A DNA stretch of 64,000 nucleotides from Clostridiales bacterium. Its GTDB lineage: Bacteria > Bacillota > Clostridia > Christensenellales > UBA3700. Below the pieces are notes generated by a model, which did no database searches, was not told the origin of the DNA, and saw only the letters and a program-made list of their open reading frames with translations. Of this stretch, positions 11,005 through 64,000 are shown in pieces. Position 1 is the stretch's first letter, and each line of letters begins with the position of its first letter. Both the position numbers and the translations under genes were made by a program. The DNA is taken from contig JAAVHS010000015.1 of NCBI GenBank assembly GCA_014799575.1, forward strand, positions 143,570 through 207,569, read 5' to 3'.

Positions 11005-11032
11005 TTCATTCCCCTTCTTCTAAATTTTATTT

Positions 11033-44467: not shown

Positions 44468-47400
44468 TTATCTTCTATTCATAGCCTTTTGCTCTTTCAA
44501 GTAATCGGCATATCTTTCGATTTGATCTTCCCTAAGGTCAATCATATCTTTTGCTGTTCCAAACGCTTGTGCATCCGCTACAATGAGTTCCGTTTCCTTG
44601 ACTTTTATCTTAGAACCGTCGCTAGTCGCATTACGGCGAATATCTTTCATATACTCATCTTCCATTTTATAAAGCGCAACAACCGTGTCTTTCTTGATCG
44701 TCAACTTCAACAATGGATTTGCCGTATTCGGTCCAAAGACTACAAAGTACGTTGACTTCTTCTCTTTGCATTTATCCTTTGAGAGAGCGTAATCTCTAAG
44801 TCCGTCAAAGTACTTCTTCTGTTCTTTACTAAGAGTTGCGTAAGCCTCATCAAGCGTAAGACGTGGAGCAACTTCCTTTTTAGGCTTTGGCGCAGCTGCC
44901 ACCTTAACTTCCTTGATTACCTGTTTTTCAACTACCTTTTCTACAGGCACTTCGACAACCTTTTCTACGACCTTCTCGACTTCGATAGGTACTTCCTTGA
45001 CGACTTCCTTCTCGACTATCTTCTCTACCGGTACTTCAACAACTTTCTCCACTACCTTTTCGACAGGAACTTCAACAACCTTCTCTACGACTTGCGGTTG
45101 ATTGTTTTGGTTGGCAGACAGCTCTAATATCTTTGCCATAAGCAATTCTTGGTTTTTCAACATCTGCTTTATTGTCTCGTCATTTTGTCCGCTTTGCGTT
45201 ACTACTTTAAGTATAGTTTCATCGCTTATGTTTGAAGAAATCGGTTGTAACTTATTAACAAGTTTTTCCAACGTTTCTTCGCTTATGTTGGCGCTTGCGA
45301 CTTCTCTTTCAGCGGGCATCTCAACAAGTTGTTGCATCAACTTCTCAACGCGCCTTTCCGTCTGCTCATTAAGTTTTCTCAATCGTTCTTCATTTTGTGC
45401 GTTCTGCTCCATCAGTTTCTGTACAAACACATCGTTGTTTGCAGTTTCCGAAGGTTTCTCGGCGAGTTGCTTCATAAGTTTCTCATTTTGGTCAATTAGC
45501 TTTTGCACCATCTCATCGTTTGTCGATGCTTGTTGCGGTAACATTTGTTGCATACCTGGGAGCATTGCCGTAACGGTCTCGGATATAAGTCCTCTCATAT
45601 CATCTGCTGTTAAGCCTTGTTGATAAGCAAAACCGCCTTGAGCTCCCGCTCCGCCTGCATTTCCGCCCATCATACCCATGAGCATCATACGCATATTTTC
45701 ATCGCGTTTTTTCTCGTCAAAATCAGCCTTATTGCGATTGTATTCGTCGAGATGATCTTCGTACTCTTCTTCCGCTTTATTGCGTCTTGACTTGGCAATC
45801 AACATCATTACAAACGATACCACTGCCATTACAATCAACACACACGCTATTGCAGTCCATATAGACATTGCCACGCCCAAGAATGCTCCTGCGTACATAC
45901 TCTCCAACTTACTTGCTTTCTTGTTGAACTTCTTTCTCTCTCCGTCATACTTTGCAGTCTTTGATAAGAATACTATAATAAGTATTATGCTTATAAAACT
46001 TGCTATCAACTGCCACAATGGTATTTCTTTGAGTTTCTCTAATATCTCTTCAAGTGAGCCGCCAAATAAGCCTCCACCCTCATTATTGTTGGGGGGATTT
46101 TCGCCGCTTTGGTCTCCGCTGTTTGGATCTTTGTTATCGTCCTCATTAGGAGCATACGTAACTTCTTCCACAACGGAATTACTTGCGTCTATCATTGCAT
46201 AGTTGCTATTGTTAAGTTTAGCGACTACTTTTGCTACTTCCACTCCGTCTGCAATTTCTGCAAGCGTAAGTTCATAGCCATCTTCGTCATAATACGTATA
46301 CGTAAACTCTATATCGCTGTTTCCTCTAACACTCAACTTAGGCAAACCGCTTTCTTCATCTGTCGTCCAATTCAACCTATTTTGCGTTATAGTTGCCTTT
46401 TCAATCTTGACGGTAACAGTGTAACTATCCGTAGTTCCGTCTTCGTCATCCCAACAGAATATTTCTTCATCTTCAAGGCTAATTCTTATGGTGTATTCGC
46501 CCGCATCGGTCAAGTTGCCATCTAGTATTTCAAACTTGACACCCGTAGGCATTTCATCTCCGCTTCTCAAGAATTCTTCGATAGTATGCGGATTTCCGTC
46601 ATAGGTAATTTTCTTGTTGGTATCGAATACAGGTTTTACAATAGATGCGCTCGATCCCGGTCGAAGTACCGTCTTTGGCTCGCCGTATATCTTGATATCG
46701 TCCTCGTAGCCATCTTTAGCGAACAACTCTTTGAAGTATGGAACGCCTGTTTCCATATCTCTAATACCATTTGCAAGAATATTGCCATCGCTGTCTTTAT
46801 ATCTGTAATCTACGTAGGATTTTACCCAATCGTCCAATACTGCCGTAGCGTTGGTATTATTACCTTGCCACTCCAAGTTTATCTCATAAGCCTTTACTCT
46901 TACCAAAGTGGAAGCCGCCGGCCAAACTCCGTCTTGCCAATCTATATTGTCATAATCTAACAAATCAAATACTACTGTGTACTCGCCCGCCTTGATTGCC
47001 TTGTAAGCGTCTCCGTCAAGTCCGTCAAAAGCGCTACCGTCTTTCGTGATGGTAATCGTCATATAATTTTCCCATCCCTCTTCGGTTATGCCAAACATTT
47101 GGGCGAAATCGTGTACTTCTCCGTCAAATACCGTCCAACTCTTGTCAAATACAGGAGTCGGCAATATCTTGACTGAAATGCTCCAATTCAATCTTGTCTG
47201 CAAAGAGCTTGGCATAACTACCGTCTCATAGTTGCTACCCAAGTCAGCGAGTGCGTATTGTATTGAATAATTACCCACTTTGCTCTGTGTACGTTCACCG
47301 CTATTATAAGAGATATAATCTTTCAAGATTTCGGGTACGTTGATAAGTCCGACGGTATATGATGCTTCTCTACCGCTTGCTCTAGTATACGGCAATGCTC

Positions 47401-49978
47401 CCGTATATTCCGTTTCTTCTCCGTCTCCAATTACGTATCCCCATACGATAGCCGACGCATCTACCTTGGCTTTTGCTATGCTCCAAGAAAGCGTAGTCGG
47501 GAAGTTGGGCGCATTGTAATTCTTGGTATCGTAAGAGAACGTAATACGCGCGGTATAGTCGTTGCCCGCATTGGTTTCTTCGTGACCTATTACGCTTATG
47601 CTCAAGCCGTTTATACTGTCCTTACCGACAAGCGTCAACGTATGCGCCGTATTATCATACGTCATCGGATCAATTTCATTGTTGCTTGCATCCAACCACT
47701 TGTTTTGGTCGAAATCATATGTAGCCGCAACGTTGCCGTGTGTATACTGCCATTTGAGTCCGCTCACGTCAAAGTCGGCTTTGATTATCTCGAAATTAAA
47801 TTCCAAACATCCGCTGTCAATATAGTTATCCTCTGCTTTATCGCTATTAAGTACGACTTCTATTCTGTACTTACCCACTTCCGTAGGTTCGCCAATAATA
47901 GGACTAGTAGCTCCGTCCTTGTAGTAATGAAGCGTGATATCTTGCGCTCCTACTCCGCCATCGGCTTGAAGTATCTCTATACTAGGCGAGTATGCGCTAC
48001 CTGTGTATGACAACTGTTTGTCTTGGATATTCTCGCCATTCCATTGCAATTCCAACTTGACAACGAATTTATCCTTACCAATGACGAACGTGTATTCTGC
48101 CGTATCGCCTGTCGATAACTTATAATTCCCGCTATACGCTGTCTTGAGCGTAGCCACTACCCTATACGTGGTCTCTTCTGTTACTTCATCAGGACTCGGC
48201 AACGTGGTAACTTGTTCGCTGCCTTTATAATAAGTATAGTCTACCATGTTCGCTTGTGGAAGATTGTTAAGCGTAGGCCACGTGTATTGAGTCACGTTTC
48301 CGTTGTTGTCATTCTTCCAACTTACGCTGATTGTCGCTTGGATTATCTTCCAACTTACAGAAAATTCGAAGTCATCGCCTATATAAGAAGTCTTATCACT
48401 CGCAATAGGTACGATATAATTATTCACGTAATCTGACGTTATACTAAACGTAACGGTCGTGGTATAGTCGCCCACGGGCGTTTTACTTCTGTCGCCTGTA
48501 TACGTCGCTGTCAAACCTGCGGGCAATACGCCTTGCAATTCCATGCTTTGCGGAGATCCGTTGTATTCTAATTGTTTTACGCTAGGCCAACTCAATCCCG
48601 TCAAATTGTACTTCGCCTTATCTATGCGATAAGACAAAGTATATTGCTTGGTGTAAGTCTCGTAAGTGTTGTCTAAATTCGTTAAATGAACTGTGACTGA
48701 ATATAGCGACGTACTAGCGTTTGTTGCGCTAATATTTCCGCTATATCCGCCCGTAGTACCACTCTTGGTCGTGTCTATCTTGACGCCGTGCGAAGCAAGT
48801 ACGCTGTCGTCTATGCTAAACGTATACGGACTGCCTGTGTATACAACTGAATAATTCGTAGGATAGCCTATTGAAATACTATTGCACAACCAATCAATAT
48901 CTGTGTCTTGTAGCGTAATACCTACTCCGCTGACGTGGAATACCAACGTCTTTGGCGTAGACAACGTGTAATTGCCGTTGGCATTACTACTGCTTGCGTT
49001 AGCCTTTTCGACGTATATCGTATAGTCGCCTTTGGCAATGCCCGTCGGCATTGTTATAGTAGTTGTCTTACCGCTTACTACTTTAATGGTATTGATTTCA
49101 TCGTACTTTGTGCCTGTACCTATACTGTTATTTATATAATATATCTTTAATTCTATTGTATCATTAGTATATGAATCTTCCGTTATCGTTACGGTAGGTT
49201 GAACTCCGTAATTCCAAGTATTGTTGTTTGCATCGCAACTTATTGTGATGCCCAACGCTTTTGGATTTATTGTCACAGGCAATGAAAAACTATCCGTTCC
49301 ACCGCTCGACCACACCATTGAGCTTTTCTCGACTAGCGAAAACGTGACGTAATAAGTACCCGCGTCTTTGACTTTCAATTTACCGTCTTTCAACTCTAAT
49401 ACGCCATCTTTTAACTCTAATATATTATTGTCTTTTTTGATATTATCGATTTTAACGTCATCGCTCAATCCGTTGATGGTAAATTCTTGCAGTTCGCCGT
49501 TATACGACAAAGTATTCGACCCTATGGTCGGCTTTGTCACGGGTTTTGCGGTAATCGAAAGGTCAGGCGTTGCTTTGCAAGTACCTTTCAATTCATAGTT
49601 ATTGTTTGGGTTCATCGTCGCTGTGACGGTATACGTACCTACCGCAGTGGGATATTGGGTATATGTTTCGCCCGTTAAATTGTTTTTGTAAGTAATAGTA
49701 AACGTCGGCGCTCGATCTCCTGTATCGCTGTCGTATATCTTATTGGCGTCAGGGTCGTTGGCAACGACTATAGGCGTGACGGTATAACCTCCGCCGCTCG
49801 ACGTAGGTTTTATCTCACATTCTATAGGTTTTTTCTTGATTGTAAATGTAAATTTTCGAGTTGTAGCGTCTTCACCTTTGCTTACATCGGGGTCGCCTTT
49901 GAACGTAAATTCCGGGTCTTCTTGTAATTTCTGGTCAGAAATCTTCGCCGTCACTGTATAAGTGCCGGCGTCTTTCAT
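44468..49978 (-). CDS. MBG-repeat surface protein, distal part of the DGR target. The frame stays open upstream to 50209.
   Basis: 1836 aa as listed. Repeated AGTY(T/Y)VT...YNG MBG-type units, a TM helix (LWQLIASFISIILIIVFL plus a second helix), and a cytoplasmic tail with EKVVEVPV repeats. No signal peptide and no clear RBS at the listed ATG. Confidence 0.7.
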   Translation of the reverse strand: MKDAGTYTVTAKISDQKLQEDPEFTFKGDPDVSKGEDATTRKFTFTIKKKPIECEIKPTSSGGGYTVTPIVVANDPDANKIYDSDTGDRAPTFTITYKNNLTGETYTQYPTAVGTYTVTATMNPNNNYELKGTCKATPDLSITAKPVTKPTIGSNTLSYNGELQEFTINGLSDDVKIDNIKKDNNILELKDGVLELKDGKLKVKDAGTYYVTFSLVEKSSMVWSSGGTDSFSLPVTINPKALGITISCDANNNTWNYGVQPTVTITEDSYTNDTIELKIYYINNSIGTGTKYDEINTIKVVSGKTTTITMPTGIAKGDYTIYVEKANASSSNANGNYTLSTPKTLVFHVSGVGITLQDTDIDWLCNSISIGYPTNYSVVYTGSPYTFSIDDSVLASHGVKIDTTKSGTTGGYSGNISATNASTSLYSVTVHLTNLDNTYETYTKQYTLSYRIDKAKYNLTGLSWPSVKQLEYNGSPQSMELQGVLPAGLTATYTGDRSKTPVGDYTTTVTFSITSDYVNNYIVPIASDKTSYIGDDFEFSVSWKIIQATISVSWKNDNNGNVTQYTWPTLNNLPQANMVDYTYYKGSEQVTTLPSPDEVTEETTYRVVATLKTAYSGNYKLSTGDTAEYTFVIGKDKFVVKLELQWNGENIQDKQLSYTGSAYSPSIEILQADGGVGAQDITLHYYKDGATSPIIGEPTEVGKYRIEVVLNSDKAEDNYIDSGCLEFNFEIIKADFDVSGLKWQYTHGNVAATYDFDQNKWLDASNNEIDPMTYDNTAHTLTLVGKDSINGLSISVIGHEETNAGNDYTARITFSYDTKNYNAPNFPTTLSWSIAKAKVDASAIVWGYVIGDGEETEYTGALPYTRASGREASYTVGLINVPEILKDYISYNSGERTQSKVGNYSIQYALADLGSNYETVVMPSSLQTRLNWSISVKILPTPVFDKSWTVFDGEVHDFAQMFGITEEGWENYMTITITKDGSAFDGLDGDAYKAIKAGEYTVVFDLLDYDNIDWQDGVWPAASTLVRVKAYEINLEWQGNNTNATAVLDDWVKSYVDYRYKDSDGNILANGIRDMETGVPYFKELFAKDGYEDDIKIYGEPKTVLRPGSSASIVKPVFDTNKKITYDGNPHTIEEFLRSGDEMPTGVKFEILDGNLTDAGEYTIRISLEDEEIFCWDDEDGTTDSYTVTVKIEKATITQNRLNWTTDEESGLPKLSVRGNSDIEFTYTYYDEDGYELTLAEIADGVEVAKVVAKLNNSNYAMIDASNSVVEEVTYAPNEDDNKDPNSGDQSGENPPNNNEGGGLFGGSLEEILEKLKEIPLWQLIASFISIILIIVFLSKTAKYDGERKKFNKKASKLESMYAGAFLGVAMSIWTAIACVLIVMAVVSFVMMLIAKSRRNKAEEEYEDHLDEYNRNKADFDEKKRDENMRMMLMGMMGGNAGGAGAQGGFAYQQGLTADDMRGLISETVTAMLPGMQQMLPQQASTNDEMVQKLIDQNEKLMKQLAEKPSETANNDVFVQKLMEQNAQNEERLRKLNEQTERRVEKLMQQLVEMPAEREVASANISEETLEKLVNKLQPISSNISDETILKVVTQSGQNDETIKQMLKNQELLMAKILELSANQNNQPQVVEKVVEVPVEKVVEKVVEVPVEKIVEKEVVKEVPIEVEKVVEKVVEVPVEKVVEKQVIKEVKVAAAPKPKKEVAPRLTLDEAYATLSKEQKKYFDGLRDYALSKDKCKEKKSTYFVVFGPNTANPLLKLTIKKDTVVALYKMEDEYMKDIRRNATSDGSKIKVKETELIVADAQAFGTAKDMIDLREDQIERYADYLKEQKAMNRR
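44905..45092 (-). repeat. In-frame tandem repeat encoding (V/I)VEKVVEVPVEK units
   Basis: Protein VVEKVVEVPVEKVVEKVVEVPVEKIVEKEVVKEVPIEVEKVVEKVVEVPVEKVVEKQV. The corresponding DNA units recur with small changes. Confidence 0.7.
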
Positions 49979-50090
49979 ATCCGACGGATATGAAAGAGTT
50001 ATGACGTCATTGTTAAACCACTTTTTCTGCTCTGCCGATATATTTGCGATTGTCTGAATGTCGCCGTTATATACGGATTCTACATCCGTC

Positions 50091-50128
50091 GGGCGCTCAG
50101 CGCCCAGAGAGCCAGCGCGAGCGCTGGC
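50091..50128. promoter_or_regulatory. Two GC-rich hairpins just 3' of the VR (DGR target-recognition-like element)
   Basis: gggcgc-tca-gcgccc (50091-50105). gccagcg-cgag-cgctggc (50111-50128). Confidence 0.6.
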
Positions 50129-50149
50129 AGATTTTAGATTAAGATGAAA

Positions 50150-50207
50150 CGCGGGCCGAACCGCGGCCGGCGGCGGTAAACTAACAAGCCGAACGCAGCC
50201 ACGAATA
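50150..50207 (-). repeat. DGR variable repeat (VR), collapsed form
   Basis: 58 nt identical to 52674-52731. Flanked on its 3' side (coding sense) by TTTCATCTTAATC, where the TRs have CTTCACTC(A/G)CTTG (an IMH versus IMH*-like difference). Confidence 0.75.
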
Positions 50208-51269
50208 GCTTACGCTATTCCCGGAAACGGTTGTTGATGTAGATCTTTGATTTGTCGATGTTTTCCACAAGCCATTGGCTGTGTCAGCATATCCTACTTC
50301 TGCAAAACTAGGCAACCATAGCCTATCGTTTCCCCATGCTAAATAAGAATCTGTATTTACCGTAGTACACGTGTAATAAATACGCGGACTGTTAGCCGTC
50401 GTATACTGATACATATTCTCCGTTATCGGCGCTCCCAAACAATCATTGTTTGCGTCATAAGAATATGACGAATGTAGAGCTTGTTTCTTTGCGCTCTCTT
50501 TTTCATTATTCTTTTGATAAGGCGTATTGTTAGGTATTTCTATGAAATCTGTCAAACTTCCCTTCATTCCGGGAGTTGTATTGGGCACTGTGAATTTTGC
50601 GTAAGTACTGCTTACTTGCTGCTGAATGTTTTCCGTTGCGCTTGTATTACTTCTTGCAAAATAACCGCCGTTGTTCAATACCGCTGTCGCCATTGCGCTT
50701 GTGCCGTAAGAGTTGGACGGATAAGTATTCACGCTGTTTGTACTATTGGTAGGATTCCATGCTATATTTACCCCTGTTGCCATAGCATTGGTACTCACGT
50801 TGTAATAATTAAGTGATATTGCGTCCGCTTGCCATAAAGTCAATATCGGATCGCCATTCGCATTCTGCGATAGATACGTCGCCGTCCACGGTTTTCCGTC
50901 TATCATTACAACTACGTCAGCTCCACCATTGTTAGTGCGGAAGTCTGCCGACGTCTTTTCCGTACTTCCAAGACCTTCAAGTGTAGCCGCTGTAGGATTG
51001 GTCACTCCTGATATCTTACTGACGAGTTTCCAAAATATCTCGCCGTTGAATACGTTACCCTTGCCTGTGGTATCATCCGCATATCCATCAAGCAACATCT
51101 CAGTCGTCGTATTATCATCTGCTTTCAATGCCGTATAATTACCTTGAAAGGCATTGGCTACTTCGCTACCATTAAATAATATCCCCACACAACTAAACAC
51201 TATTGCCAATACCAATATTGACACCAACGCTGTTGTTATTCTCTTATTTCTGCTTTTTTCATTATTCAT
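50181..51269 (-). CDS. Proximal part of the DGR target: signal peptide plus a WLRS-type (C-type-lectin/DUF6273-like) domain truncated in the VR
   Basis: 362 aa. TM/signal ITTALVSILVLAIVFSCVGILF. C-terminus ..RLWLPSFAEVGYAD..SVSYSWLRSAC-stop. Confidence 0.75.
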   Translation of the reverse strand: MNNEKSRNKRITTALVSILVLAIVFSCVGILFNGSEVANAFQGNYTALKADDNTTTEMLLDGYADDTTGKGNVFNGEIFWKLVSKISGVTNPTAATLEGLGSTEKTSADFRTNNGGADVVVMIDGKPWTATYLSQNANGDPILTLWQADAISLNYYNVSTNAMATGVNIAWNPTNSTNSVNTYPSNSYGTSAMATAVLNNGGYFARSNTSATENIQQQVSSTYAKFTVPNTTPGMKGSLTDFIEIPNNTPYQKNNEKESAKKQALHSSYSYDANNDCLGAPITENMYQYTTANSPRIYYTCTTVNTDSYLAWGNDRLWLPSFAEVGYADTANGLWKTSTNQRSTSTTVSGNSVSYSWLRSAC

Positions 51270-51606: not shown

Positions 51607-52071
51607 ATGTTTGTAAAAATCACATCTGTTGCTACTCTTCCCGATTATATCCTTCTCGTAGGATTTGTGTCAGGCGAATATAAGCAATTCGACTTAAAAC
51701 CGCTTATAGAAAAATATGCGCCGTTCAAATCTTTGGTAGAAGTGGAAGGCCTTTATGAACAAGTGAAAATCGACGTAGGCGGTTATGGTCTTGTCTGGAA
51801 CGACGATCTCGATATCGCCGCAGATGGAATTTATGACAAAGGTATTTCTTGCGCTCCTCCGAGCGACATAGAAACTTACAGACAAAAACTTGTCGAAGAG
51901 TTTGTCAAAGCGCGTAAGAACGCAGGTCTTTCTCAAAAACAACTCGAAATTCTTTCGGGGATTCCCCAACCATGTATCGCTCGAACGGAAAAAGGGTTAA
52001 CAGATCCGCAACTTACAACTTTACTAAAACTACTTTCCCCATTAGGTTTGACTCTTTCAATTACAAAATAA
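51607..52071 (+). CDS. DUF2442 domain / XRE-type HTH fusion protein
   Basis: 154 aa. N-terminal pattern V..LPDYILLVGFVSGEYKQFDL..DVGGYGLVWNDDLDIAADGIY fits DUF2442. C-terminal AGLSQKQLEILSGIPQPCIARTEKG is an HTH. Confidence 0.65.
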   Translation: MFVKITSVATLPDYILLVGFVSGEYKQFDLKPLIEKYAPFKSLVEVEGLYEQVKIDVGGYGLVWNDDLDIAADGIYDKGISCAPPSDIETYRQKLVEEFVKARKNAGLSQKQLEILSGIPQPCIARTEKGLTDPQLTTLLKLLSPLGLTLSITK

Positions 52072-52081
52072 GTTTATCCCC

Positions 52082-52271
52082 GAAGTGAGCCTTGCCGCCG
52101 TAGCAATAAAAGCATTAACCGTCATTACAGGACAAGGCTCTGTTTCGTCTTTGCCACTAACATTGTCGACAAAAACAGGACAAAAGTTTCCTTCATCTCT
52201 ATCTTATCTGTCCGCTCGACCGTGATCGATACGGATACGGGAATTCCTTGCCTAATAGCAAGTGAGTGAAG
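52082..52271 (-). ncRNA. TR1-flanking conserved segment (DGR spacer-like RNA, copy A)
   Basis: Blocks shared with 52483-52673: atccgtat.gat, agcggacaga, gagatgaagg, aaacagagccttgtcct, atgacgg, ggctcac (coding sense). The complementary gagcct(t)g / c(a)aggctc segments are kept in both copies. Confidence 0.45.
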
Positions 52272-52388
52272 CGCGGGCCGAACCGCGTTGGTATTATTGA
52301 CATTATTGTTATTCATAGAAGTGCCGGCGGCGGCTAGTCTGTATGAATTGTTGTAATTGTTATAATTAGCCGAACGCAGCCACGAATA
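52272..52388 (-). repeat. DGR template repeat TR1 (full length, adenine-rich)
   Basis: Coding sense encodes YSWLRSA-NYNNYNNSYRLAAAGTSMNNNNVNNTN-AVRPA. 12 of the 27 central codons are AAY. Confidence 0.8.
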
Positions 52389-52482
52389 ATACGGCAACCA
52401 GATACAAAAACTTCTACCCTGCGCCCATTATAGCATATCACTTACTGAAATATCAACTTTTTCTATAACATAAAGTAAAAAT

Positions 52483-52673
52483 GTGAGCCTCGCCATTTTT
52501 ACGCTAAAAGCAGTCATTGTTTTCCACCGTCATCGTAGGACAAGGCTCTGTTTTGTCTCTCCCGCCTTTGCGGTCAAGACTAGACGAAATCCCCTTCATC
52601 TCATATCTTCTGTCCGCTTGACCTTAATCAATACGGATGCTGGAAATACTTATCTTTTGACAAGCGAGTGAAG
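52483..52673 (-). ncRNA. TR2-flanking conserved segment (DGR spacer-like RNA, copy B)
   Basis: Homologous in blocks to 52082-52271. Directly follows TR2. Confidence 0.45.
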
Positions 52674-52731
52674 CGCGGGCCGAACCGCGGCCGGCGGCGG
52701 TAAACTAACAAGCCGAACGCAGCCACGAATA
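52674..52731 (-). repeat. DGR template repeat TR2 (deletion derivative, identical to the VR)
   Basis: Equals TR1 with a clean 35-nt deletion and 34 nt replaced by 10 nt. Carries the TR-type 3' flank CTTCACTCGCTTG. Confidence 0.7.
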
Positions 52732-52822
52732 CATACAAACCTCAAACAAAAGATTTCGCCGTGTGTATTATATTGTATATAATAATTTACTATCACTTCA
52801 ATAGATATAGTAATTTCTATGT

Positions 52823-54466
52823 CTACTGTCTGGCTTTTGATTTCATCCAACCGCTCAACATCTTCTTGACTTCGCAAACTTGCTTACCTATAAGCATGGC
52901 TTGTTTGTTTGTAATGGCCTGCTTAACCTTTGCGGTCTCAGCATAAAAGTCCAATAGACACAAGTTGACCATTGCTTGCTTTTGGTACTCGCTACGCTTT
53001 TCATCTCTTTCAAAATTTGCGTAGTACAAACTCTCTATGACTGACGTCGATGCGTCCATAAGCCTTGATACAATACTCCATCTCAATGTCTTTGGCGACT
53101 TTTCCGTGATAACAAAAATATACTCGCTCAATTTCTTTGCGCCTGTAAACACTTGCATTTCTCTGTCTTTGGGTTGATTGAAGTCAGTTATCTTAAAAGG
53201 CTTTTTCTCCCCTTCTTGCGTTTGGTTTTCAATTGTGTTTTCTTTGGTTTCTCCCAAAAGTTCATTCTTTATTTCTTGGTCTATGTCGTTCATCATCTCT
53301 TTCAAATACTCCTTTTGTCCTTCATACGTAGATAATTTTTTCTCTTCGGCAAATGCTTTTTCTTTCTCTTCGATCGGCTCTAATTTCCGCTCGATTTCTT
53401 TTGCAAACTTTATACTCTTTGCGTGTTTCAAATGACCGTGAAATGCTGCGCACGTTTGCCTTATTCGTTCAATATTTATCAGTCCCTCATAGTATCCTTT
53501 CTTTATTAGTTTCACTCGCCATCGGAATCTTCGCTTGGTTTGCTTCTTTATCGTCTTGACTATTTCCCCTTCAGGTGTAACAACAAATCTGTACCCAAGA
53601 TAAGTCACTCCGTTCTTTATCGGAAATATCTGTGTCTTGGAATTTAATTTCAAGCCTAGCCGCTTTACCAAATCTTCTATCCGTTCTTTGACGTACTTTA
53701 TGTATTCAAGGTTTTCGTGCATAAGTACGAAGTCATCCATATACCTTGAATATACCTTTATTCTCAACTGCTCTTTTATTAATCTATCCACGGGGTCAAG
53801 ATAAAACATTCCAAAAATTTGACTTGTCTGATTTCCAATCGGTATACCCCTTCCCGTCTCTTCGCCTTTGCCTAATGGCTCTATACCGTACTTAGTCAGA
53901 TAATCGGGACTTGTGCTGTATCCGTCAATTACGCCTTCTATCATCTTTCGTATGCGCTCGTCCACTATGCGAGTACAAACTACCGACTTTAACTTGTCAT
54001 GCGGTATGCTTGCAAAAAATTTGAGTACGTCGCACTTGAGAAAATACCCATTGACTCCATTCTTATCTATGTGTCTACGCAACATTTTTTCAAATCTATC
54101 CAATGCAAAATGACTGCCTTTGCCCTTTTGGCAAACACAATTATCATAAATTACCCTATTTGCAAAATATGGCATAAGCATATTATCGCATAAGACGTGC
54201 TGTATCACTCTGTCGCAATACCGCATATTTTGAATCTCTCGACGCTTGGGCTCAAATACTAAAAAGGTGTTATAGCCACCAAACTTAAATGTACCGTTTA
54301 TTAATTTCTTATGTAATTCGTAAATATTTCCTAATGCGGAAATTTCAAATTTTACTATGGGTTTCTTACTTCTACGAGAAGCCCTGCTCTTCAAGTGAGC
54401 TGCATAAAGATTTTCTATACTGAACAACTCTTCGTAAGTGTTCGTTATCAATTTATTTGTTTTCAA
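52823..54466 (-). CDS. DGR reverse transcriptase with C-terminal Avd-like domain
   Basis: 547 aa, TTG start with GGAG 5 nt upstream. RT motifs FEPKRREI, CQKGKGSHFA, GIPIGNQTSQ (the DGR-specific (I/L)GxxxSQ) and SRYMDDFVLM. C-terminal ~115 aa: SPKTLRWSIVSRL..ESLYYAN..EVKKMLSGWMKS, resembling the Avd four-helix bundle. Confidence 0.85.
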   Translation of the reverse strand: MKTNKLITNTYEELFSIENLYAAHLKSRASRRSKKPIVKFEISALGNIYELHKKLINGTFKFGGYNTFLVFEPKRREIQNMRYCDRVIQHVLCDNMLMPYFANRVIYDNCVCQKGKGSHFALDRFEKMLRRHIDKNGVNGYFLKCDVLKFFASIPHDKLKSVVCTRIVDERIRKMIEGVIDGYSTSPDYLTKYGIEPLGKGEETGRGIPIGNQTSQIFGMFYLDPVDRLIKEQLRIKVYSRYMDDFVLMHENLEYIKYVKERIEDLVKRLGLKLNSKTQIFPIKNGVTYLGYRFVVTPEGEIVKTIKKQTKRRFRWRVKLIKKGYYEGLINIERIRQTCAAFHGHLKHAKSIKFAKEIERKLEPIEEKEKAFAEEKKLSTYEGQKEYLKEMMNDIDQEIKNELLGETKENTIENQTQEGEKKPFKITDFNQPKDREMQVFTGAKKLSEYIFVITEKSPKTLRWSIVSRLMDASTSVIESLYYANFERDEKRSEYQKQAMVNLCLLDFYAETAKVKQAITNKQAMLIGKQVCEVKKMLSGWMKSKARQ

Positions 54467-54529: not shown

Positions 54530-54559
54530 ATTTTATCAAATAATCTAAGTGATTGTCAA
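54530..54559 (-). promoter_or_regulatory. Candidate promoter of the RT gene
   Basis: Minus strand TTGACA, 18 nt, TAAAAT, ~60 nt upstream of the RT start. Confidence 0.5.
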
Positions 54560-57315: not shown

Positions 57316-58617
57316 TTAACTAAAAACTCTATTAACAACACTCCTGCCCTGTTGTCTTATATCGTCTGTCACATGCTCATAAACTTCAAACGTAGTGCTC
57401 AATTTTGAGTGTCCTAATCTGCATTGGATATACTTCTGCGTAGCGCCACTTTCTGCAAGAATACTTGCATGCGTATGTCTCAATGAATGATAATCAAATT
57501 CTTCGCAAATATCTTTCTTTATTATCTTTGTCGCATGTTGCATAGTTCTTGGACTAATAAAAGTACCGTCCTCTCTTATACAAACAAAATGAATAAGATA
57601 ATCTGTTTCTTGAGTTCGAATTCTATTTTGAATATCATTGTACATATTAAATTTATTATCAAATACTAAAGGTCTATCAGAATAATAGTTGTGATAATAT
57701 ATCCCATAATACGCTTTTGCTATCTCTTGTCTTTTCTTTTCTACCGACAGTATTTTAGCTAATCCATCACTAATCTCTATGGCGCGATAAGAATTATATT
57801 TTGGCGCTGAAAAATACCAATAACCATTGCCACATTCTGATGAGCCGTTGTTAGCAATTTTGTCATATATTGTTCTTTCTTTATCTTGATACCATTGAAC
57901 TTGTCTGTTTATATAAATAACCTTGTTGACTAAATCTATATCTTCCCAACACAGTCCAAAAGTTTCCCCCAAACGTAAACCGCACTCATAGCCAAGTTTT
58001 AAAGGAATATAGCTCGAGCTTCTTTCTGTAAAGCGTTCAAATATTTTTTGCATTACTTCACCTTTAATAAAATGATGCGGAGCCGAACGTGTTGGCACTT
58101 GGGGCACTCTATTCTTAGGTATTTTCAATCTAACTGCCGGAGTGCAAACTATGTAGTGATTGTCCATTGCATAATTCATACTTTTAGTAAGCATTCCTTT
58201 AAATGAAACTAGCGAATTTCTAGAATAACCGAAGTCATACATCTCGACTAAAAAGGCTTGCAGTACTTCTCTCGTTAAAGATCTTAGCCTATACGAACCC
58301 AATTTAGGCTTGAATACGTTGTCTATAACTTTCTTATAGTGCGTCAACGTCGTTTCTTTCAAGTCAACCATACAATCTTTTTCGAACCAAATATCAAAAA
58401 AATCCGCTACTGAAATCTGATCCTTTGCAATATGTCCATAGTTCTCGTACTGTCTCATCGCTTCCCTTCCTGCTTTTCGCGCTTCAGTAACAGTTTTAAA
58501 TCCGCTCTTTGATTTCCATTTTCTTTTGCCATCAATACTCGCAATCTCAAAGCGGTATTCATACACTGCGCCATTTGTTGAAAAACGTTTTCTGATACAT
58601 AAATTAATCATATACAA
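57316..58617 (-). CDS. Tyrosine recombinase / integrase
   Basis: 433 aa. N-terminal arm-binding-like segment, then HSLRHTHAS (HxxR) and LGHSKLSTTFEVYEHV (catalytic Tyr). Confidence 0.85.
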   Translation of the reverse strand: MYMINLCIRKRFSTNGAVYEYRFEIASIDGKRKWKSKSGFKTVTEARKAGREAMRQYENYGHIAKDQISVADFFDIWFEKDCMVDLKETTLTHYKKVIDNVFKPKLGSYRLRSLTREVLQAFLVEMYDFGYSRNSLVSFKGMLTKSMNYAMDNHYIVCTPAVRLKIPKNRVPQVPTRSAPHHFIKGEVMQKIFERFTERSSSYIPLKLGYECGLRLGETFGLCWEDIDLVNKVIYINRQVQWYQDKERTIYDKIANNGSSECGNGYWYFSAPKYNSYRAIEISDGLAKILSVEKKRQEIAKAYYGIYYHNYYSDRPLVFDNKFNMYNDIQNRIRTQETDYLIHFVCIREDGTFISPRTMQHATKIIKKDICEEFDYHSLRHTHASILAESGATQKYIQCRLGHSKLSTTFEVYEHVTDDIRQQGRSVVNRVFS

Positions 58618-58699: not shown

Positions 58700-59602
58700 T
58701 TACATTTCCAAATCTTTCTTTTTTCTACCACTAACTTTATCATTTGATTCAGTGTTTGTTGCTCCGCTTCCAGAATATATCGAAAGCCATATTTTCATAC
58801 TCTCAAGTTCGCTTTCAGCAAGCAACTTTGCCATACCTTCCGTCTTGCTCTCAGGGCGTGTGCTATACTTTTCTTTATCCCTATAAGAACTTATTGCAGC
58901 ATAATACCTATCGCGTTCTTCATAACGCACGTCGACAGGCAAAAGTCCCAACAAAATCATCTCATAGATTAAAAGCAATCTTCCCGTTCTTCCATTGCCG
59001 TCAACAAATGGATGTATGTTTTCAAACTCAATATGATGTTTCGCAAGATTGTGGAACAACTCAACCCAGTTAAACTGTCCTTTCTCCGCAAGTTCGCAGT
59101 TGCGTTTACAATCGGCTTGCAGTTCTTCCACATACGCTTTCATCTTTTCCGGTACTTGCGACGGCGAACAAGGCGTATAAACTATTCTTGTTAGATTGCC
59201 TATATAATTCTGTATTGTTCTATATTGTCCTGCACCGTCATCACCACGCAAAACAAAACTGTGAACTTTCTTTATAAATTCTTCAGTAATCGGCTTCTTT
59301 TCCTTTACCGATTCATAGAGGAAATCAAAGGCCTGTTTATATCCAACTATGTCTTCGCTCTCACGTAAAGAGTGCGCGCCAGTAACAATTCCTTTTTCAA
59401 TAAGCAACTTGGTTTCGTCAAACGTAAAGGTATTACCCTCTATAGCATTAGAGTTATGGCTAGCGCTAATAGAAAACTCATTATTAAAATACATAAGTTC
59501 GCTTGAAGTAAGCGGACGGACTTCTTTCATACGCGCATAGCAATTCTCTATCTCGCTTATGATTTCTATGTATTTTTGTTGTTCTTCCATTTTTTTAGAC
59601 AT
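58700..59602 (-). CDS. Fic family protein with N-terminal inhibitory motif
   Basis: Start set at the second ATG (MSKKMEEQQ; AGGAG 8 nt upstream). Fic motif HPFVDGNGRTGR. Inhibitory helix motif SNAIEGN. Confidence 0.9.
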   Translation of the reverse strand: MSKKMEEQQKYIEIISEIENCYARMKEVRPLTSSELMYFNNEFSISASHNSNAIEGNTFTFDETKLLIEKGIVTGAHSLRESEDIVGYKQAFDFLYESVKEKKPITEEFIKKVHSFVLRGDDGAGQYRTIQNYIGNLTRIVYTPCSPSQVPEKMKAYVEELQADCKRNCELAEKGQFNWVELFHNLAKHHIEFENIHPFVDGNGRTGRLLLIYEMILLGLLPVDVRYEERDRYYAAISSYRDKEKYSTRPESKTEGMAKLLAESELESMKIWLSIYSGSGATNTESNDKVSGRKKKDLEM

Positions 59603-59690
59603 AGCCATTGCTCCTTTTTTACATTATAATCATATTTATATAAATAGTCAAGGTTAATTCAATCGCCTAACTGTACTTATTTTATTACAG
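59349..59690. repeat. Right copy of the fic 5'-end plus promoter module (partner at 1-345)
   Basis: See the left-copy entry. Homology runs from codon ~87 through the promoter to ~40 nt beyond the -35. Confidence 0.8.
59623..59651 (-). promoter_or_regulatory. SigA-type promoter of the right fic gene
   Basis: Minus strand TTGACT, 17 nt, TATAAT. Confidence 0.6.
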
Positions 59691-60991: not shown

Positions 60992-63028
60992 TTACTCTTT
61001 GGGGGATAATAAATCTGATGGAATTGAAATTTCTATTGCATTGGGAAATCTATGTTTGAATTGTTCAACCTCGCTATTAGTGAGAACTCGAACACACGCA
61101 AGATTTTTCTTAGCACGAGAACATGCGACATATATTAACTTTTGAGAGTTTATTTTTTTCTCAACATTCTTTTCGCCTTCTTTATAAAGCAAAGAAAAGT
61201 CATATTGATTCCAAAAATATTCTTCCATTACAACAATAACAGAAGGTATACTGGTACCTTTAGTTTTGTGCATCGTAATATAATTTGTTTCCTCATCAAG
61301 ATACTTTGCATAATTTAATACCTCTGAAAACTTGAGATTCGACGAAAATAAATCTGTTATGAAGCGTTCTTTTTCCCACTGCGATAAATAAAAATCAAAT
61401 TCTTCTTTGGATGAAACAATATTACTATCCTTGATTCGGCTATATGTATTTAATCCACTTAAATAATTAGTTTTAAACTTTTGATATAAATCATCGTGTA
61501 TTAGTTGCTTCAAATAATTGTCATTCCGTGCAGATATGTTTCTATAAGTTTCAGTTCTTTTAATAATTTGTTGTTTAATAGCATTCTCCACTATGTCTAT
61601 AATAGATGAATTTGAATCATTTATTATACCATGTATTATATCATGTAATCTCTTCTTGTCAGCAATAGAATGTATAACATATCCACCTTTTTTTGCAAGT
61701 CTAATTACCTCATTATAATTCCCCTTTAAATATAAACGGCATAAGTCGCTTACATCCAGTGCTTGTATAGAACGCAAATAGCTTTCTATCCTGTCACTCA
61801 CATCAAGATATCTTTCATCAAAAACTTTATAAAGCTGTTTGAAGTCATTTTTCTCAGCGATTGCCTTATTTGTAAGAATTAATACTTTGGAATTACCCAC
61901 ATTTTTTTGCGCCTCGGCAATTAAATAATTAATAAGTTTTTGAAATTTTCCTTTTTCATCGGGGTCACTTTTTGATGTCGGTTTACTTTCTACTACAGAA
62001 TATAGAATCTTTACCACACCATGACGATCCGCTTCATTTTCATATCTTCCATCGCTTAGTTTTTTTAATGCAACATCTTGAGAAATACTGTCGATACGCA
62101 AAGAATTAATTAATTCGACGACTTCATATGAGCATCTATAATTGTCGACTTTAGCAATTTCATCAAGCATTCCAGTTTCTATATAGGCATCCAAACTTCC
62201 AATTCCATCATCATAAATAGCTTGCATACTATCTCCAAATAGCCCAATTGTCAAATTGTATTCTGAAGACAACTGCAACATATCGCTCATAATTTCTGCT
62301 CTAGTATCCTGATACTCATCGATAAAAATATAGTCATACTTATCTGAAATAATTTTACCCAATATGGGATACTCTTTTACCATGTAATGAAAAATAGCAA
62401 GAAGTCCATCGTGGCCATAACTCAAATCACCAAAACTATCAAATTTCGTCTCATTGTAAATTATTGAAGAATAATCTTTTTCATTAATGATGTCTAAGAT
62501 TTTATTATTGAGAGTTTTGATTTTTTCATTAAGAACTTGATTGTAATTTTCAGGAGATTTATCATAGTCTCTTTTATTAACAACTTTGTCGCAATTCTCT
62601 TTACAAATAGAGTATAGCTTACCAGAATACTTGCTATATATTTTTTTGTATTTTTCGTACTCATCTTTTTTATATTCCGTTTCAGAGATATCTTCAGTTT
62701 GCACACCATGTCTAATTGATGGGACTAAAAACAATCCTGGAATTACTGATTTTATATTTTTCTTATAATTTCCAATCAATCCATATAAAAACGAGTGAAT
62801 TGTACTGATGTAGTAGCCATCACCTACTCTATTCACAATTTCTTCAACTGCGGCATTTGTATGTGTAATACAAACAACTTTGGCCTGGGGTTGAGATTGC
62901 TTAATATATAAAAGCAGCTCTTTTAGTGATTCAGTTTTTCCACTTCCAGCACCACCTTGAAGAACAAAACTTCTATGCAAATCAATACACTTTTTACATT
63001 GGTCTAATGCACTTGTTTCTGTAACCAT
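60992..63028 (-). CDS. UvrD/PcrA-family SF1 helicase (GajB-like)
   Basis: Start set at MVTETS (AGGAGG 6 nt upstream), giving 678 aa. GGAGSGKT, FIDEYQDT, GDSMQAIY, ITMHKTKGTSIP, YVACSRAKKNL. Confidence 0.85.
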   Translation of the reverse strand: MVTETSALDQCKKCIDLHRSFVLQGGAGSGKTESLKELLLYIKQSQPQAKVVCITHTNAAVEEIVNRVGDGYYISTIHSFLYGLIGNYKKNIKSVIPGLFLVPSIRHGVQTEDISETEYKKDEYEKYKKIYSKYSGKLYSICKENCDKVVNKRDYDKSPENYNQVLNEKIKTLNNKILDIINEKDYSSIIYNETKFDSFGDLSYGHDGLLAIFHYMVKEYPILGKIISDKYDYIFIDEYQDTRAEIMSDMLQLSSEYNLTIGLFGDSMQAIYDDGIGSLDAYIETGMLDEIAKVDNYRCSYEVVELINSLRIDSISQDVALKKLSDGRYENEADRHGVVKILYSVVESKPTSKSDPDEKGKFQKLINYLIAEAQKNVGNSKVLILTNKAIAEKNDFKQLYKVFDERYLDVSDRIESYLRSIQALDVSDLCRLYLKGNYNEVIRLAKKGGYVIHSIADKKRLHDIIHGIINDSNSSIIDIVENAIKQQIIKRTETYRNISARNDNYLKQLIHDDLYQKFKTNYLSGLNTYSRIKDSNIVSSKEEFDFYLSQWEKERFITDLFSSNLKFSEVLNYAKYLDEETNYITMHKTKGTSIPSVIVVMEEYFWNQYDFSLLYKEGEKNVEKKINSQKLIYVACSRAKKNLACVRVLTNSEVEQFKHRFPNAIEISIPSDLLSPKE

Positions 63029-64000
63029 TCGAGTCCCTCCTTGATATATGCTGGAGTATTCCAATTTAGTCCATTTGCATGCGTGAGGAATAAAATAGTA
63101 GATGCAAAGTCAGACTTTTTACTAATAACTCGCGTTGTCAGTTTATACATGTCAGAACAAGTTTCAAATTCTTCTTTATTTTTCAATCCTTCTATTGATG
63201 AAAGATTTGATTTGATTTGCGATAAATTTACATTGATAAATGCATCTTCAAAACTTCTTGCGTAGTACGATTTTTCCTCCCCTTGATAAGCGATATGGAC
63301 ATTGGGGCTTATGCAATTAGCTTTATGCTTTAACACATCATTAAACCAACTGCTGTACGAATCATCCCCCACTTTACAATTTGGTTCTCCTAAGTAATAC
63401 ATTATTGTAGCATTGCTTGTTTTGCATACATTAGAATCATTTACCTCACATGATGAATACCAAACTCCCTTGTCTGTAGTTTCTTGCTTCACTGTATCAA
63501 TATCGGTAATTATTAGCGATGGTATTTTCAAAAACTCAAGAAAATGCCGAAACACTTTTGCATTAGCACCAGCACGAACAACCGTCACATTTTGAGCTGA
63601 TAGTGGAATATAAGTAGGTTTTAATGTAGGATCATTAGCAATTCTGGTCTCCTCTTCCTCAATCTTGACTGTATCAAATTGTGTAATGAAGTGTTGCAGT
63701 AAAATATCTTCTGATATACCTTCAATAAAAATTGCCTTATCTGCAAAAAACAGTTCTGACGATTCAATAGAAAGATACTGCTTTAAAAATTTAAACTCAT
63801 TCTGTTCACCAGAGTACATACTGCTTAAGTCTTTGTGAAAATTCTTAATCTCTATATTATAAAACCCCTCTGAATCTCTTATAGTGGACATATATCTAAT
63901 GTTCTCAAAAGGATGACTGGCTACAATATGGGAAGAGTGAGTTGTGATAATCGTCTGCATACCTGGAATACCACTAACGATTTCACTAATTTTTCTGGCA
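63004..64000 (-). CDS. OLD-family ATPase/Toprim nuclease (GajA-like), C-terminal part; gene continues beyond the window
   Basis: The frame stays open to the window edge. IITTHSSHI (ABC H-loop region), FIEGISEDILL (Toprim Glu), LIITDIDT (DxD). Confidence 0.75.
   Translation of the reverse strand, partial: ARKISEIVSGIPGMQTIITTHSSHIVASHPFENIRYMSTIRDSEGFYNIEIKNFHKDLSSMYSGEQNEFKFLKQYLSIESSELFFADKAIFIEGISEDILLQHFITQFDTVKIEEEETRIANDPTLKPTYIPLSAQNVTVVRAGANAKVFRHFLEFLKIPSLIITDIDTVKQETTDKGVWYSSCEVNDSNVCKTSNATIMYYLGEPNCKVGDDSYSSWFNDVLKHKANCISPNVHIAYQGEEKSYYARSFEDAFINVNLSQIKSNLSSIEGLKNKEEFETCSDMYKLTTRVISKKSDFASTILFLTHANGLNWNTPAYIKEGLEWLQKQVH

What the first reader, a model, noticed from the sequence alone, without database searches (positions are those of the whole stretch)
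52823..53175. DGR reverse transcriptase fused to an Avd-like domain
Typical DGR RTs are ~330-400 aa, and the accessory variability determinant (Avd, a four-helix bundle) is a separate small gene.

Here the RT ORF is 547 aa. After the RT core comes an E/K-rich linker. The last ~115 aa read AKKLSEYIFVITEKSPKTLRWSIVSRLMDASTSVIESLYYANFERDEKRSEYQKQAMVNLCLLDFYAETAKV..GKQVCEVKKMLSGWMKSKARQ.

This follows the Avd pattern: ..fPk..r..l...l..a..si..i..An ... ei.kmL.gw. Compare the end of Bordetella bAvd, ..EVGRILGSWI.

No separate avd gene is present in the locus.
Basis: inference. Interest (0 to 1): 0.65.

Follow-up and report, generated by a model that had tools for sequence, protein, structure and literature searches.

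The report
DGR reverse transcriptase fused to Avd
This gut Clostridia element makes the two proteins of a diversity-generating retroelement, the reverse transcriptase and its helper Avd, as one 547-residue chain, a rare natural arrangement that still drives adenine-directed mutation of its target gene in close relatives.

Summary

- **The ORF:** 52823..54466 (-) encodes 547 aa. It has a DGR-type RT (aa 1-~350; best solved match is Bordetella bRT 8UB7_A), an acidic helical and disordered linker (aa ~351-433), and a basic four-helix bundle (aa 434-547).
- **The Avd match:** the bundle matches Pfam bAvd and NCBIfam Avd end to end. Its predicted fold matches only Avd/23S-IVS proteins (2GSC, 2RLD, 8UB7 B-E, 4DWL).
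- **Origin:** the nearest unfused relatives have RT followed about 37 nt later by a separate 160-aa avd. That avd aligns at 55% identity with aa 388-547, so the fusion came from reading through an RT-avd gene pair.
- **Not an artefact:** the fused frame recurs in many independent assemblies. Length differences against a 78%-identical homologue fall in whole codons in the protein alignment.
- **Frequency:** 2 of 80 related species-representative genomes are fused. There are at least two independent fusion lineages, possibly four.
- **Activity:** five assemblies with the 78%-identical fused enzyme share one TR but carry five different VRs, with 73 of 79 changes at TR adenines.

This is a new variant of a known system. 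No paper describing it was found.

Separately, the locus has a second, shortened, stop-containing template cassette, and its sequence has overwritten the target's VR in this window.

The parts
52823..54466 (-). RT-Avd fusion ORF, 547 aa, TTG start
53417..54466 (-). DGR reverse transcriptase domain, aa 1-~350; contains IPIGNQTSQ and YMDD
   Evidence: RVT_1 E=4.9e-18. Sequence match to bRT 8ub7_A E=3e-37. Fold match to 8ub7_A with target TM 0.90 and 30% identity.
53168..53416 (-). Linker, aa ~351-433. Two long helices (352-379, 381-404) followed by a disordered stretch (406-430). It derives from the RT 3' end, the former intergenic spacer and the N-terminal extension of Avd.
52826..53167 (-). 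Avd four-helix bundle, aa 434-547, pI 9.6
52826..53305 (-). Whole stretch homologous to the free-standing 160-aa Avd of sister DGRs (aa 388-547, 55% identity)
53291..53296 (-). ATG-ATG (Met391/392) close to where the ancestral avd start aligns (about codon 388), with AAAAGGAG 12 nt upstream. It could be an internal start for a free Avd; this is speculative.
54530..54559 (-). Promoter-like site upstream of the RT-Avd ORF (TTGACA-18-TAAAAT)
52674..52731 (-). Short template-like repeat. It lacks both A-rich stretches and reads WLRSAC-TAG.
52483..52673 (-). Conserved non-coding segment downstream of the short repeat. It sits in the position of the Bordetella spacer RNA; it has no Rfam match.
52272..52388 (-). 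Full template repeat (TR), 34 adenines, AAY-rich. It has its own promoter-like site at 52456..52427.
52085..52271 (-). Conserved non-coding segment downstream of the full TR; a repeated 81-nt stretch is 81% identical to the one after the short repeat
50150..50207 (-). Variable repeat of the target gene, here in the short state. In the 63-nt repeat 50145..50207 it is 62/63 identical to the short template, and it carries the VR-type 3' flank.
50181..51269 (-). Target gene, N-terminal 362 aa, cut off by the TAG inside the short VR
44468..49978 (-). 1836-aa ORF. In the homologous locus L001 the equivalent sequence is the continuation of the same 2237-aa target protein.

Best explanation
This is a genuine in-frame fusion of a diversity-generating retroelement (DGR) reverse transcriptase with its accessory protein Avd.

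In this Clostridia DGR lineage the usual gene order is RT, then avd on the same strand with a gap of a few tens of bases or an overlap, then one or more template cassettes. In the ancestor of the window's clade the RT stop codon was lost. The former spacer plus the N-terminal extension of Avd then became a roughly 80-residue acidic linker, part helical and part disordered.

The product carries both activities that Bordetella supplies as two proteins. One is the polymerase that misincorporates opposite template adenines. The other is the basic four-helix bundle, which in Bordetella forms a pentameric barrel, binds the spacer RNA and is required for bRT to work.

Inferred mechanism, not shown here:
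- The Avd domains oligomerise through the bundle.
- The long linker lets one RT domain dock on the barrel and on the RNA downstream of the TR.
- cDNA is made from the TR transcript and replaces the VR of the giant surface-protein gene.

Two points remain open: whether all five RT domains of such an assembly are used, and whether a free Avd is also made from the retained ATG at codon 391.
For: Domain identity:
- RT.
- Avd by profile.
- Avd by fold.
- Full-length model: RT, helices, a disordered stretch, then the bundle.

Origin:
- The unfused sister loci L005-L008 have an RT of 371 aa, a 37-nt gap, then a 160-aa bAvd gene.
- That Avd aligns with aa 388-547 at 55% identity, including the extension.
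- 76 of 80 related species-representative loci have RT followed by a separate avd on the same strand; 2 of 80 are fused.

Genuine and under selection:
- The fused frame is present in many independent assemblies.
- Length differences in the linker fall in whole alignment columns, that is, whole codons.
- Fused lineages each have closer unfused relatives than fused ones, so the fusion recurred.

Activity:
- L001-L004 and L024 carry the 78%-identical fused enzyme, one TR (one base differs in L024) and five different VRs.
- 73 substitutions fall at TR adenines and 6 elsewhere. Adenines are 30% of the TR.
- In the window's own species, L019/L020 have a VR with 15 of 16 changes at adenines.

No other avd is present in the window. 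The Bordetella requirement for Avd and the 1 bRT: 5 Avd: 1 RNA stoichiometry come from bioRxiv 10.1101/2023.10.23.563531.
Against: - No biochemical test was possible. Oligomeric state, docking of RT on the bundle and use of the linker are inferences.
- The Avd profile scores are borderline against curated cut-offs: Pfam 36.7-40.1 bits against 40, NCBIfam 39.5-43 bits against 80.
- A profile of this Avd subfamily did not hit bAvd by sequence in the PDB. The link to bAvd rests on the Pfam and NCBIfam models and on the predicted fold.
- In this window the VR is not diversified; it is in a truncated state. None of the five sampled assemblies of this species has an intact target ORF, so current activity in this particular strain is not shown.
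- Diversification in relatives could in principle be driven by another RT elsewhere in those genomes.
- A free avd elsewhere in the genome, outside the 64 kb, cannot be excluded.
Confidence: 0.82

Rival explanations
1. The fusion is a sequencing or assembly frameshift that joins two adjacent genes that are really separate.
For: In many relatives the RT and avd ORFs overlap or abut in different frames, so a single-base error would fuse them. Two of the distant fused proteins, P0009 and P0019, are known from one contig each.
Against: The same fused frame is found in:
- at least 9 members of the 90% cluster, from ENA, Logan and NCBI assemblies;
- 21 contigs read for P0002;
- L023 and L024;
- P0008 and P0022, which are 83% identical to each other.
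The linker differs between the 547- and 558-aa versions only by whole alignment columns, that is, whole codons.
Confidence: 0.02
2. The fused ORF is a tolerated but non-functional remnant. The DGR of this strain is dead, and the truncated target is part of the same decay.
For: The window's VR is the undiversified short form. All five sampled assemblies of this species have a disrupted target: four short, one frameshifted.
Against: - The ORF is intact and 94-99% conserved across strains.
- The TR, its promoter-like site and the downstream RNA segment are intact.
- A VR diversified at adenines exists in the same species (L019/L020).
- The 78% fused relative shows five different adenine-mutated VRs.
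Confidence: 0.08
3. The fused polypeptide is made, but the working particle still has the Bordetella 1 RT : 5 Avd composition, because free Avd is translated from the retained internal ATG (codon 391) or released by proteolysis of the disordered linker.
For: - ATG-391 lies three codons downstream of the position that aligns with the ancestral avd start (about codon 388).
- It keeps AAAAGGAG 12 nt upstream in both the window and L001.
- The stretch aa 406-430 is predicted to be disordered.
Against: - The 12-nt spacing is long for a ribosome-binding site.
- The AAAAGGAG also encodes conserved residues (QKEY).
- The second fused lineage (P0008, P0022, P0009, P0019) has no Met at that position.
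- No expression data are available.
Confidence: 0.2
4. The C-terminal bundle is a generic 23S-IVS-type four-helix protein with a role other than Avd's.
For: The best fold matches are 2GSC and 2RLD, which are not from DGRs. The NCBIfam Avd score is below its cut-off.
Against: Its closest sequence relatives (51-59% identity in alignment A3, several hundred proteins) are all the small genes that sit directly after DGR RTs in this lineage. The bAvd Pfam model scores far better than the IVS model: E=5.5e-10 against 5.5e-4.
Confidence: 0.04

Closest known systems
Bordetella phage BPP-1 DGR: bRT plus Avd (PDB 8UB7, 4DWL)
   Same: - Same RT subclass: E=3e-37, fold TM 0.90.
- Same four-helix basic accessory fold: target TM 0.85-0.90.
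- Adenine-specific TR-to-VR transfer.
- A structured non-coding segment next to the TR.
   Different: - In Bordetella the two proteins are separate, the gene order is avd-TR-brt, and the particle is 1 bRT : 5 Avd : 1 RNA.
- Here the order is RT-(Avd)-TR, the two are one chain, and Avd carries a roughly 45-residue N-terminal extension.
- A covalent link forces equal numbers of RT and Avd domains unless a free Avd is also made.
Unfused sister DGRs of gut Clostridia/Christensenellales MAGs (for example P0006 RT plus 160-aa Avd, loci L005-L008)
   Same: - RT 64-65% identical; Avd 55% identical including the extension.
- Same RT-then-avd order.
- Same type of template cassettes, including a short stop-containing first cassette.
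   Different: A stop codon and a 37-nt spacer with a ribosome-binding site separate the two genes. In those loci the template cassettes lie on the opposite strand.
DGR RTs with unexplained C-terminal extensions (Wu et al. 2018, PMC5758913)
   Same: About 20% of DGR RTs were reported to have extensions of up to ~150 aa after the thumb domain.
   Different: That survey found no motif in them except a weak MutS_I match in three RTs, and gave 300-500 aa as the size range. Here the extension is about 195 aa and is identified as Avd. Ten other extended RT representatives scanned here had no Avd domain.
Engineered Avd-Fae fusion used for cryo-EM (bioRxiv 10.1101/2023.10.23.563531)
   Same: It shows that Avd tolerates a covalently attached partner and still supports adenine-mutagenic cDNA synthesis on a truncated RNA.
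   Different: - It is artificial.
- The partner is attached to the C-terminus of Avd, at the wide end of the barrel.
- It blocked use of the intact TR.
- Here RT is attached to the N-terminal side of Avd through a long natural linker.

Membership tests
DGR reverse transcriptase | RT motifs with a catalytic YxDD, and closest similarity to known DGR RTs rather than to group II intron or retron RTs | tested here: met
   YMDD is present. The best PDB sequence hit is bRT (E=3e-37), against 1e-8 for the best group II intron RT. The best fold hit is 8ub7_A.
DGR reverse transcriptase | The [LIV]GxxxSQ signature in the fingers/palm region; that this is a DGR hallmark is from my own knowledge | tested here: met
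   IPIGNQTSQ at aa 208-216, invariant in alignment A1.
DGR (whole system) | An adjacent TR and a cognate VR whose differences are concentrated at TR adenines | tested here: inconclusive
   In the window itself the VR is the short, undiversified form. In the same species (L019/L020) 15 of 16 changes are at adenines. In the 78% fused relative 73 of 79 are.
DGR (whole system) | The GC-rich 3' end of the repeat carries a VR-specific flank (IMH) that differs from the TR flank (IMH*) | tested here: met
   GCGGTTCGGCCCGCG is followed by TTTCAT at the VR and by CTTCAC at both template copies.
Avd (accessory variability determinant; Pfam bAvd PF22296, clan with 23S_rRNA_IVP) | Significant end-to-end match to the family profile | tested here: met
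   PF22296: E=5.5e-10, 40.1 bits against gathering score 40 for the isolated domain; 36.7 bits within the whole protein; profile positions 8-106 of 107. NCBIfam Avd: E=4.5e-11, but below its 80-bit cut-off.
Avd | Four-helix-bundle fold superimposable on bAvd | tested here: met
   AF2 model with pLDDT above 90 over the bundle. Matches 4DWL and 8UB7 B-E with target TM 0.79-0.90 and rmsd 1.5-2.0 A.
Avd | Basic surface charge | tested here: met
   Core aa 435-547 has pI 9.60. Free-standing relatives have a mean pI of 8.76.
Avd | Encoded next to a DGR RT and TR | tested here: met
   It is in the same ORF as the RT, with the TR 430 nt downstream.
Avd | Homopentameric barrel that binds RT and the spacer RNA and is required for cDNA synthesis | not testable with these tools
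   Only monomer prediction was available. This needs multimer modelling, SEC-MALS or cryo-EM, and an activity assay.

The most novel reading that the evidence does not exclude

The element carries two templates. One is the full A-rich TR, which diversifies the giant surface protein. The other is a conserved, shortened, adenine-poor cassette whose copy into the VR introduces a TAG and a frameshift.

On this reading the retroelement acts as a reversible ON/OFF switch as well as a diversifier. The short VR keeps both homology ends, so the full TR could in principle restore it.

A related reading concerns the fused RT-Avd itself. It may be a self-sufficient single-chain DGR enzyme working with equal numbers of RT and Avd domains, unlike the 1:5 Bordetella particle.
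Probability: 0.25. Interest if true: 0.75.

Novelty: new variant of a known kind. Interest (0 to 1): 0.45.

Why it matters
Avd is indispensable for the Bordetella RT, yet how strictly the 1 RT : 5 Avd architecture is needed is unknown. A natural, recurrent and apparently active covalent RT-Avd offers a direct test.

- If the single chain suffices, the stoichiometry is flexible. The linker would then mark which ends of the two proteins must be close.
- It gives a one-gene enzyme for DGR-based targeted mutagenesis tools, which at present need RT and Avd co-expressed.
- It accounts for one case of a DGR RT with a long C-terminal extension, a class that large surveys left unexplained.
- It warns that such a locus could be scored as lacking avd when the Avd is hidden inside the RT gene. 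The NCBI record of this protein is annotated only as a 467-aa hypothetical protein.

Tried and rejected
- **Mixed alignment:** an alignment of fused proteins, RT-only and Avd-only sequences (A4) spread the Avd-only sequences over the RT region. It was discarded. The full-length model used fused plus RT-only sequences instead (A5).
- **Subfamily profile against the PDB:** a profile of the Avd subfamily found no Avd by sequence. The link needed the Pfam and NCBIfam models and the predicted fold.
- **Rfam:** no match on the template region 51900-52900.
- **Other extended RTs:** a Pfam scan of ten other DGR-RT representatives with long extensions found no further Avd fusions; one has a SLOG/YAcAr domain.
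- **JGI metagenome scan:** a search for the VR 3' end (GCGGTWCGGCCCGCGTTTCATCT) returned nothing, so the frequency of the short VR state could not be widened beyond the ENA and Logan contigs.
- **VRs for the distant fused lineage:** repeat searches in L009 and L011 found TRs but no VR within reach. Activity of that lineage is untested.
- **Literature:** searches for a described natural RT-Avd fusion or a truncated stop-bearing TR found none. The Roux et al. global survey could not be retrieved in the library.
- **Fusion junction at DNA level:** the alignment (A7) is too diverged to place the exact lost stop codon.

Full report
**Observation**

The ORF 52823..54466 on the minus strand encodes 547 aa. 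It starts at a TTG preceded by GGCGGAG, and a near-consensus promoter-like site lies at 54559..54530.

Pfam finds RVT_1 at aa 76-294 (E=4.9e-18) and bAvd (PF22296) at aa 444-543 over almost the whole profile. The bAvd match is E=6.4e-9, or E=5.5e-10 and 40.1 bits when the C-terminus is scanned alone, against a gathering score of 40. NCBIfam's Avd model matches end to end (E about 5e-10 to 5e-11) but below its strict cut-off. The linker aa 365-434 is acidic (pI 4.65) and the C-terminal core is basic (pI 9.60).

No other Avd-like ORF exists in the window or among the annotated neighbours within 10 kb.

**Structure**

An AlphaFold2 model of aa 388-547, built on 98 free-standing relatives, has helices at 48-68, 72-98, 102-127 and 133-156, with pLDDT above 90 over most of the bundle. 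Foldseek against the PDB ranks only the Avd/23S-IVS family (ranks 1-23) before the first unrelated fold at rank 24. These are 2GSC, 2RLD, the Avd chains of the Bordetella DGR particle 8UB7 and its sister entries, and free bAvd 4DWL. Target TM is 0.79-0.90 and rmsd 1.2-2.2 A, apart from one 2RLD chain at 0.71 and 4.1 A.

The full-length model has pLDDT 87. It shows a confident RT (1-350), two long helices (352-379, 381-404), a disordered stretch (406-430) and the bundle (434-546). Its RT part matches bRT best: 8ub7_A, target TM 0.90, 30% identity. The sequence match to bRT is E=3e-37.

**Origin**

The closest unfused RTs are P0004-P0007, 64-65% identical over the RT domain. In their loci (L005-L008) they are followed 37 nt downstream by a separate 160-aa bAvd gene with its own ribosome-binding site. 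That Avd aligns with window aa 388-547 at 55% identity, including the N-terminal extension and the nearly invariant RKPF.I.DF..P.D.EM motif.

A scan of one genome per GTDB species found 550 related loci. Of the 80 best:
- 76 have RT followed by a separate avd on the same strand, often with overlapping reading frames;
- 2 are fused (L023, L024);
- 2 are cut off by contig ends.

The fusion is therefore a rare derived state produced by reading through an adjacent gene pair. The window keeps ATG-ATG at codons 391-392, with AAAAGGAG 12 nt upstream. This lies three codons downstream of where the ancestral avd start aligns. The 78% relative keeps a single ATG there with the same upstream AAAAGGAG. 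This could be a relic or a working internal start.

**Not an artefact, and recurrent**

The fused frame occurs in these places:
- the window's contig (ENA ERZ27267574 k119_95342);
- other ENA and Logan assemblies and an NCBI MAG, where it is annotated as a 467-aa hypothetical protein;
- 21 contigs read for the 78%-identical P0002.

The 547- and 558-aa versions differ in the linker only by whole alignment columns, that is, whole codons.

A neighbour-joining tree of the RT domain puts the window's fused clade inside unfused RTs. BLAST of the other fused proteins shows each has a closer unfused relative than any other fused lineage:
- P0008/P0022: the unfused L100, 62-64%;
- P0009: the unfused L096, 64%;
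- P0019: the unfused P0280, 73%.

That gives at least two well-supported independent fusions. It may be four, but P0009 and P0019 rest on single contigs.

In a search of 1.84 billion representative proteins, only one of the best 150 hits covers both domains. Ten other long DGR RTs had no Avd domain.

**Function**

Loci L001-L004 come from four samples and L024 is a species representative. All carry the P0002-type fused enzyme, the same short cassette and the same TR (one base differs in L024). Their VRs are all different. 73 substitutions lie at TR adenines and 6 elsewhere, while adenines are 30% of the TR.

In the window's own species, L019/L020 have a full-length VR with 15 of 16 changes at adenines. 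This is the signature of DGR mutagenic retrohoming, so the fused enzyme is very probably active. It remains an inference that the neighbouring RT, and not another one in the genome, did the work.

How the chain assembles is also inferred. Bordetella bRT is inactive without Avd, and the particle is 1 bRT: 5 Avd: 1 RNA (bioRxiv 10.1101/2023.10.23.563531). A covalent fusion either gives a barrel with five tethered RT domains or is supplemented by free Avd from an internal start. The second fused lineage has no Met at that position.

**Comparison with the literature**

The large DGR survey (PMC5758913) reports RTs of about 300-500 aa. About 20% have unexplained C-terminal extensions of up to ~150 aa, and avd is always a separate gene. 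Reviews and later surveys that were searched do not mention a natural RT-Avd fusion. I therefore rate this a new variant of a known kind. It is of moderate interest, mainly for the stoichiometry question and as a single-gene enzyme for mutagenesis tools.

**A second finding in the same locus**

After the RT-Avd stop there are two template cassettes, not one.
- The first is 52674-52731. It lacks both A-rich stretches and reads WLRSAC-TAG.
- The second is 52272-52388, the full TR.

Each is followed by a conserved non-coding segment of about 190 nt. A promoter-like site precedes each cassette: 11 of 12 consensus matches before the full TR, 9-10 of 12 before the short one.

The short, stop-containing cassette is conserved in the 78% and 81% fused relatives and in the unfused sister clade.

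In this window the target's VR (50150-50207) is not a diversified copy of the TR. In the 63-nt repeat it is 62/63 identical to the short cassette, and the single difference lies in the 3' flank. As a result the target stops after 362 aa. In L001 the equivalent of the following 1836-aa ORF is part of one 2237-aa protein.

The short VR recurs in independent assemblies. In L017, whose short cassette has a different sequence, the VR matches that strain's own short cassette exactly. The segment TGTTAGTTTA cannot be derived from the full TR by deletion, so the short VR was copied from the short cassette.

No adenine of the short template is changed in any VR. That fits faithful gene conversion better than mutagenic retrohoming, unless selection keeps the TAG. 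Whether this is a retroelement-driven OFF switch or ordinary conversion from a decayed duplicate is open.

Many cassette arrays (up to 7) and in-frame stops in full TRs occur across this lineage.

Noticed in passing
window 52483-52731 (-) and 50150-50207 (-); L017 4235-4300 and 6177-6245; L001 7734-7810: A second, shortened template cassette lacks the A-rich codons and has an in-frame TAG. It is conserved in related DGRs. Its sequence has replaced the target's VR in this window and in at least three other assemblies. In L017 the VR matches that strain's own variant of the short cassette. This could be a DGR-linked OFF state of the giant target protein, or gene conversion from a decayed duplicate.
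   Followed up: partly
window 44468-51269 (-): The 362-aa and 1836-aa ORFs are two pieces of one giant protein; the homologue in L001 is 2237 aa. The protein has an N-terminal membrane anchor, a lectin-like variable domain and long repeats, with hydrophobic (apparently transmembrane) stretches and a Glu/Lys-rich tail further on. The VR lies about 350 aa from the N-terminus, not at the C-terminus as is usual for DGR targets.
   Followed up: partly
L019 1896-2010, L020 1851-1965, L002 ~11024-11028: Two otherwise full-length, adenine-diversified VRs carry a 1-nt deletion that frameshifts the target. These could be real retroelement indels or consensus artefacts from mixed VR populations.
   Followed up: no
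loci L047, L052, L062, L068, L086, L005-L008: Relatives carry tandem arrays of 3-7 template cassettes, each with the conserved downstream RNA segment. Some copies are adenine-poor and look like already diversified repeats. Many full TRs contain in-frame TAA or TAG codons that adenine mutagenesis could remove.
   Followed up: partly
L021 1445-1554: This metaSPAdes scaffold joins the target's 5' flank to the short repeat and then to the template-type 3' flank. It is either a repeat-induced misassembly or a recombinant. It shows that contigs often break or switch at these repeats.
   Followed up: no
window 60992-64000 (-): An OLD-like TOPRIM protein lies next to a UvrD-type helicase, which resembles a Gabija-type defence pair. 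A Fic gene (58700-59608) and a tyrosine integrase (57316-58617) follow. The DGR therefore sits beside a probable integrated island.
   Followed up: no
window 51607-52071 (+): A DUF2442 plus HTH_3 gene lies between the TR and the target on the opposite strand. In sister strains (L012, L019) a DUF4160 gene accompanies it, but not here.
   Followed up: no
L001-L004 3621-3971: The 78% fused relative also has a free-standing 116-aa 23S_rRNA_IVP (PF05635) gene 2 kb upstream of the RT-Avd ORF, separated from it by a transporter gene. The window has no counterpart.
   Followed up: partly
P0244, P0248: Two database homologues of the target end in translated Illumina adapter sequence (QIGRAHV, EIGRASCRERV). 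Their C-termini are artefacts.
   Followed up: yes
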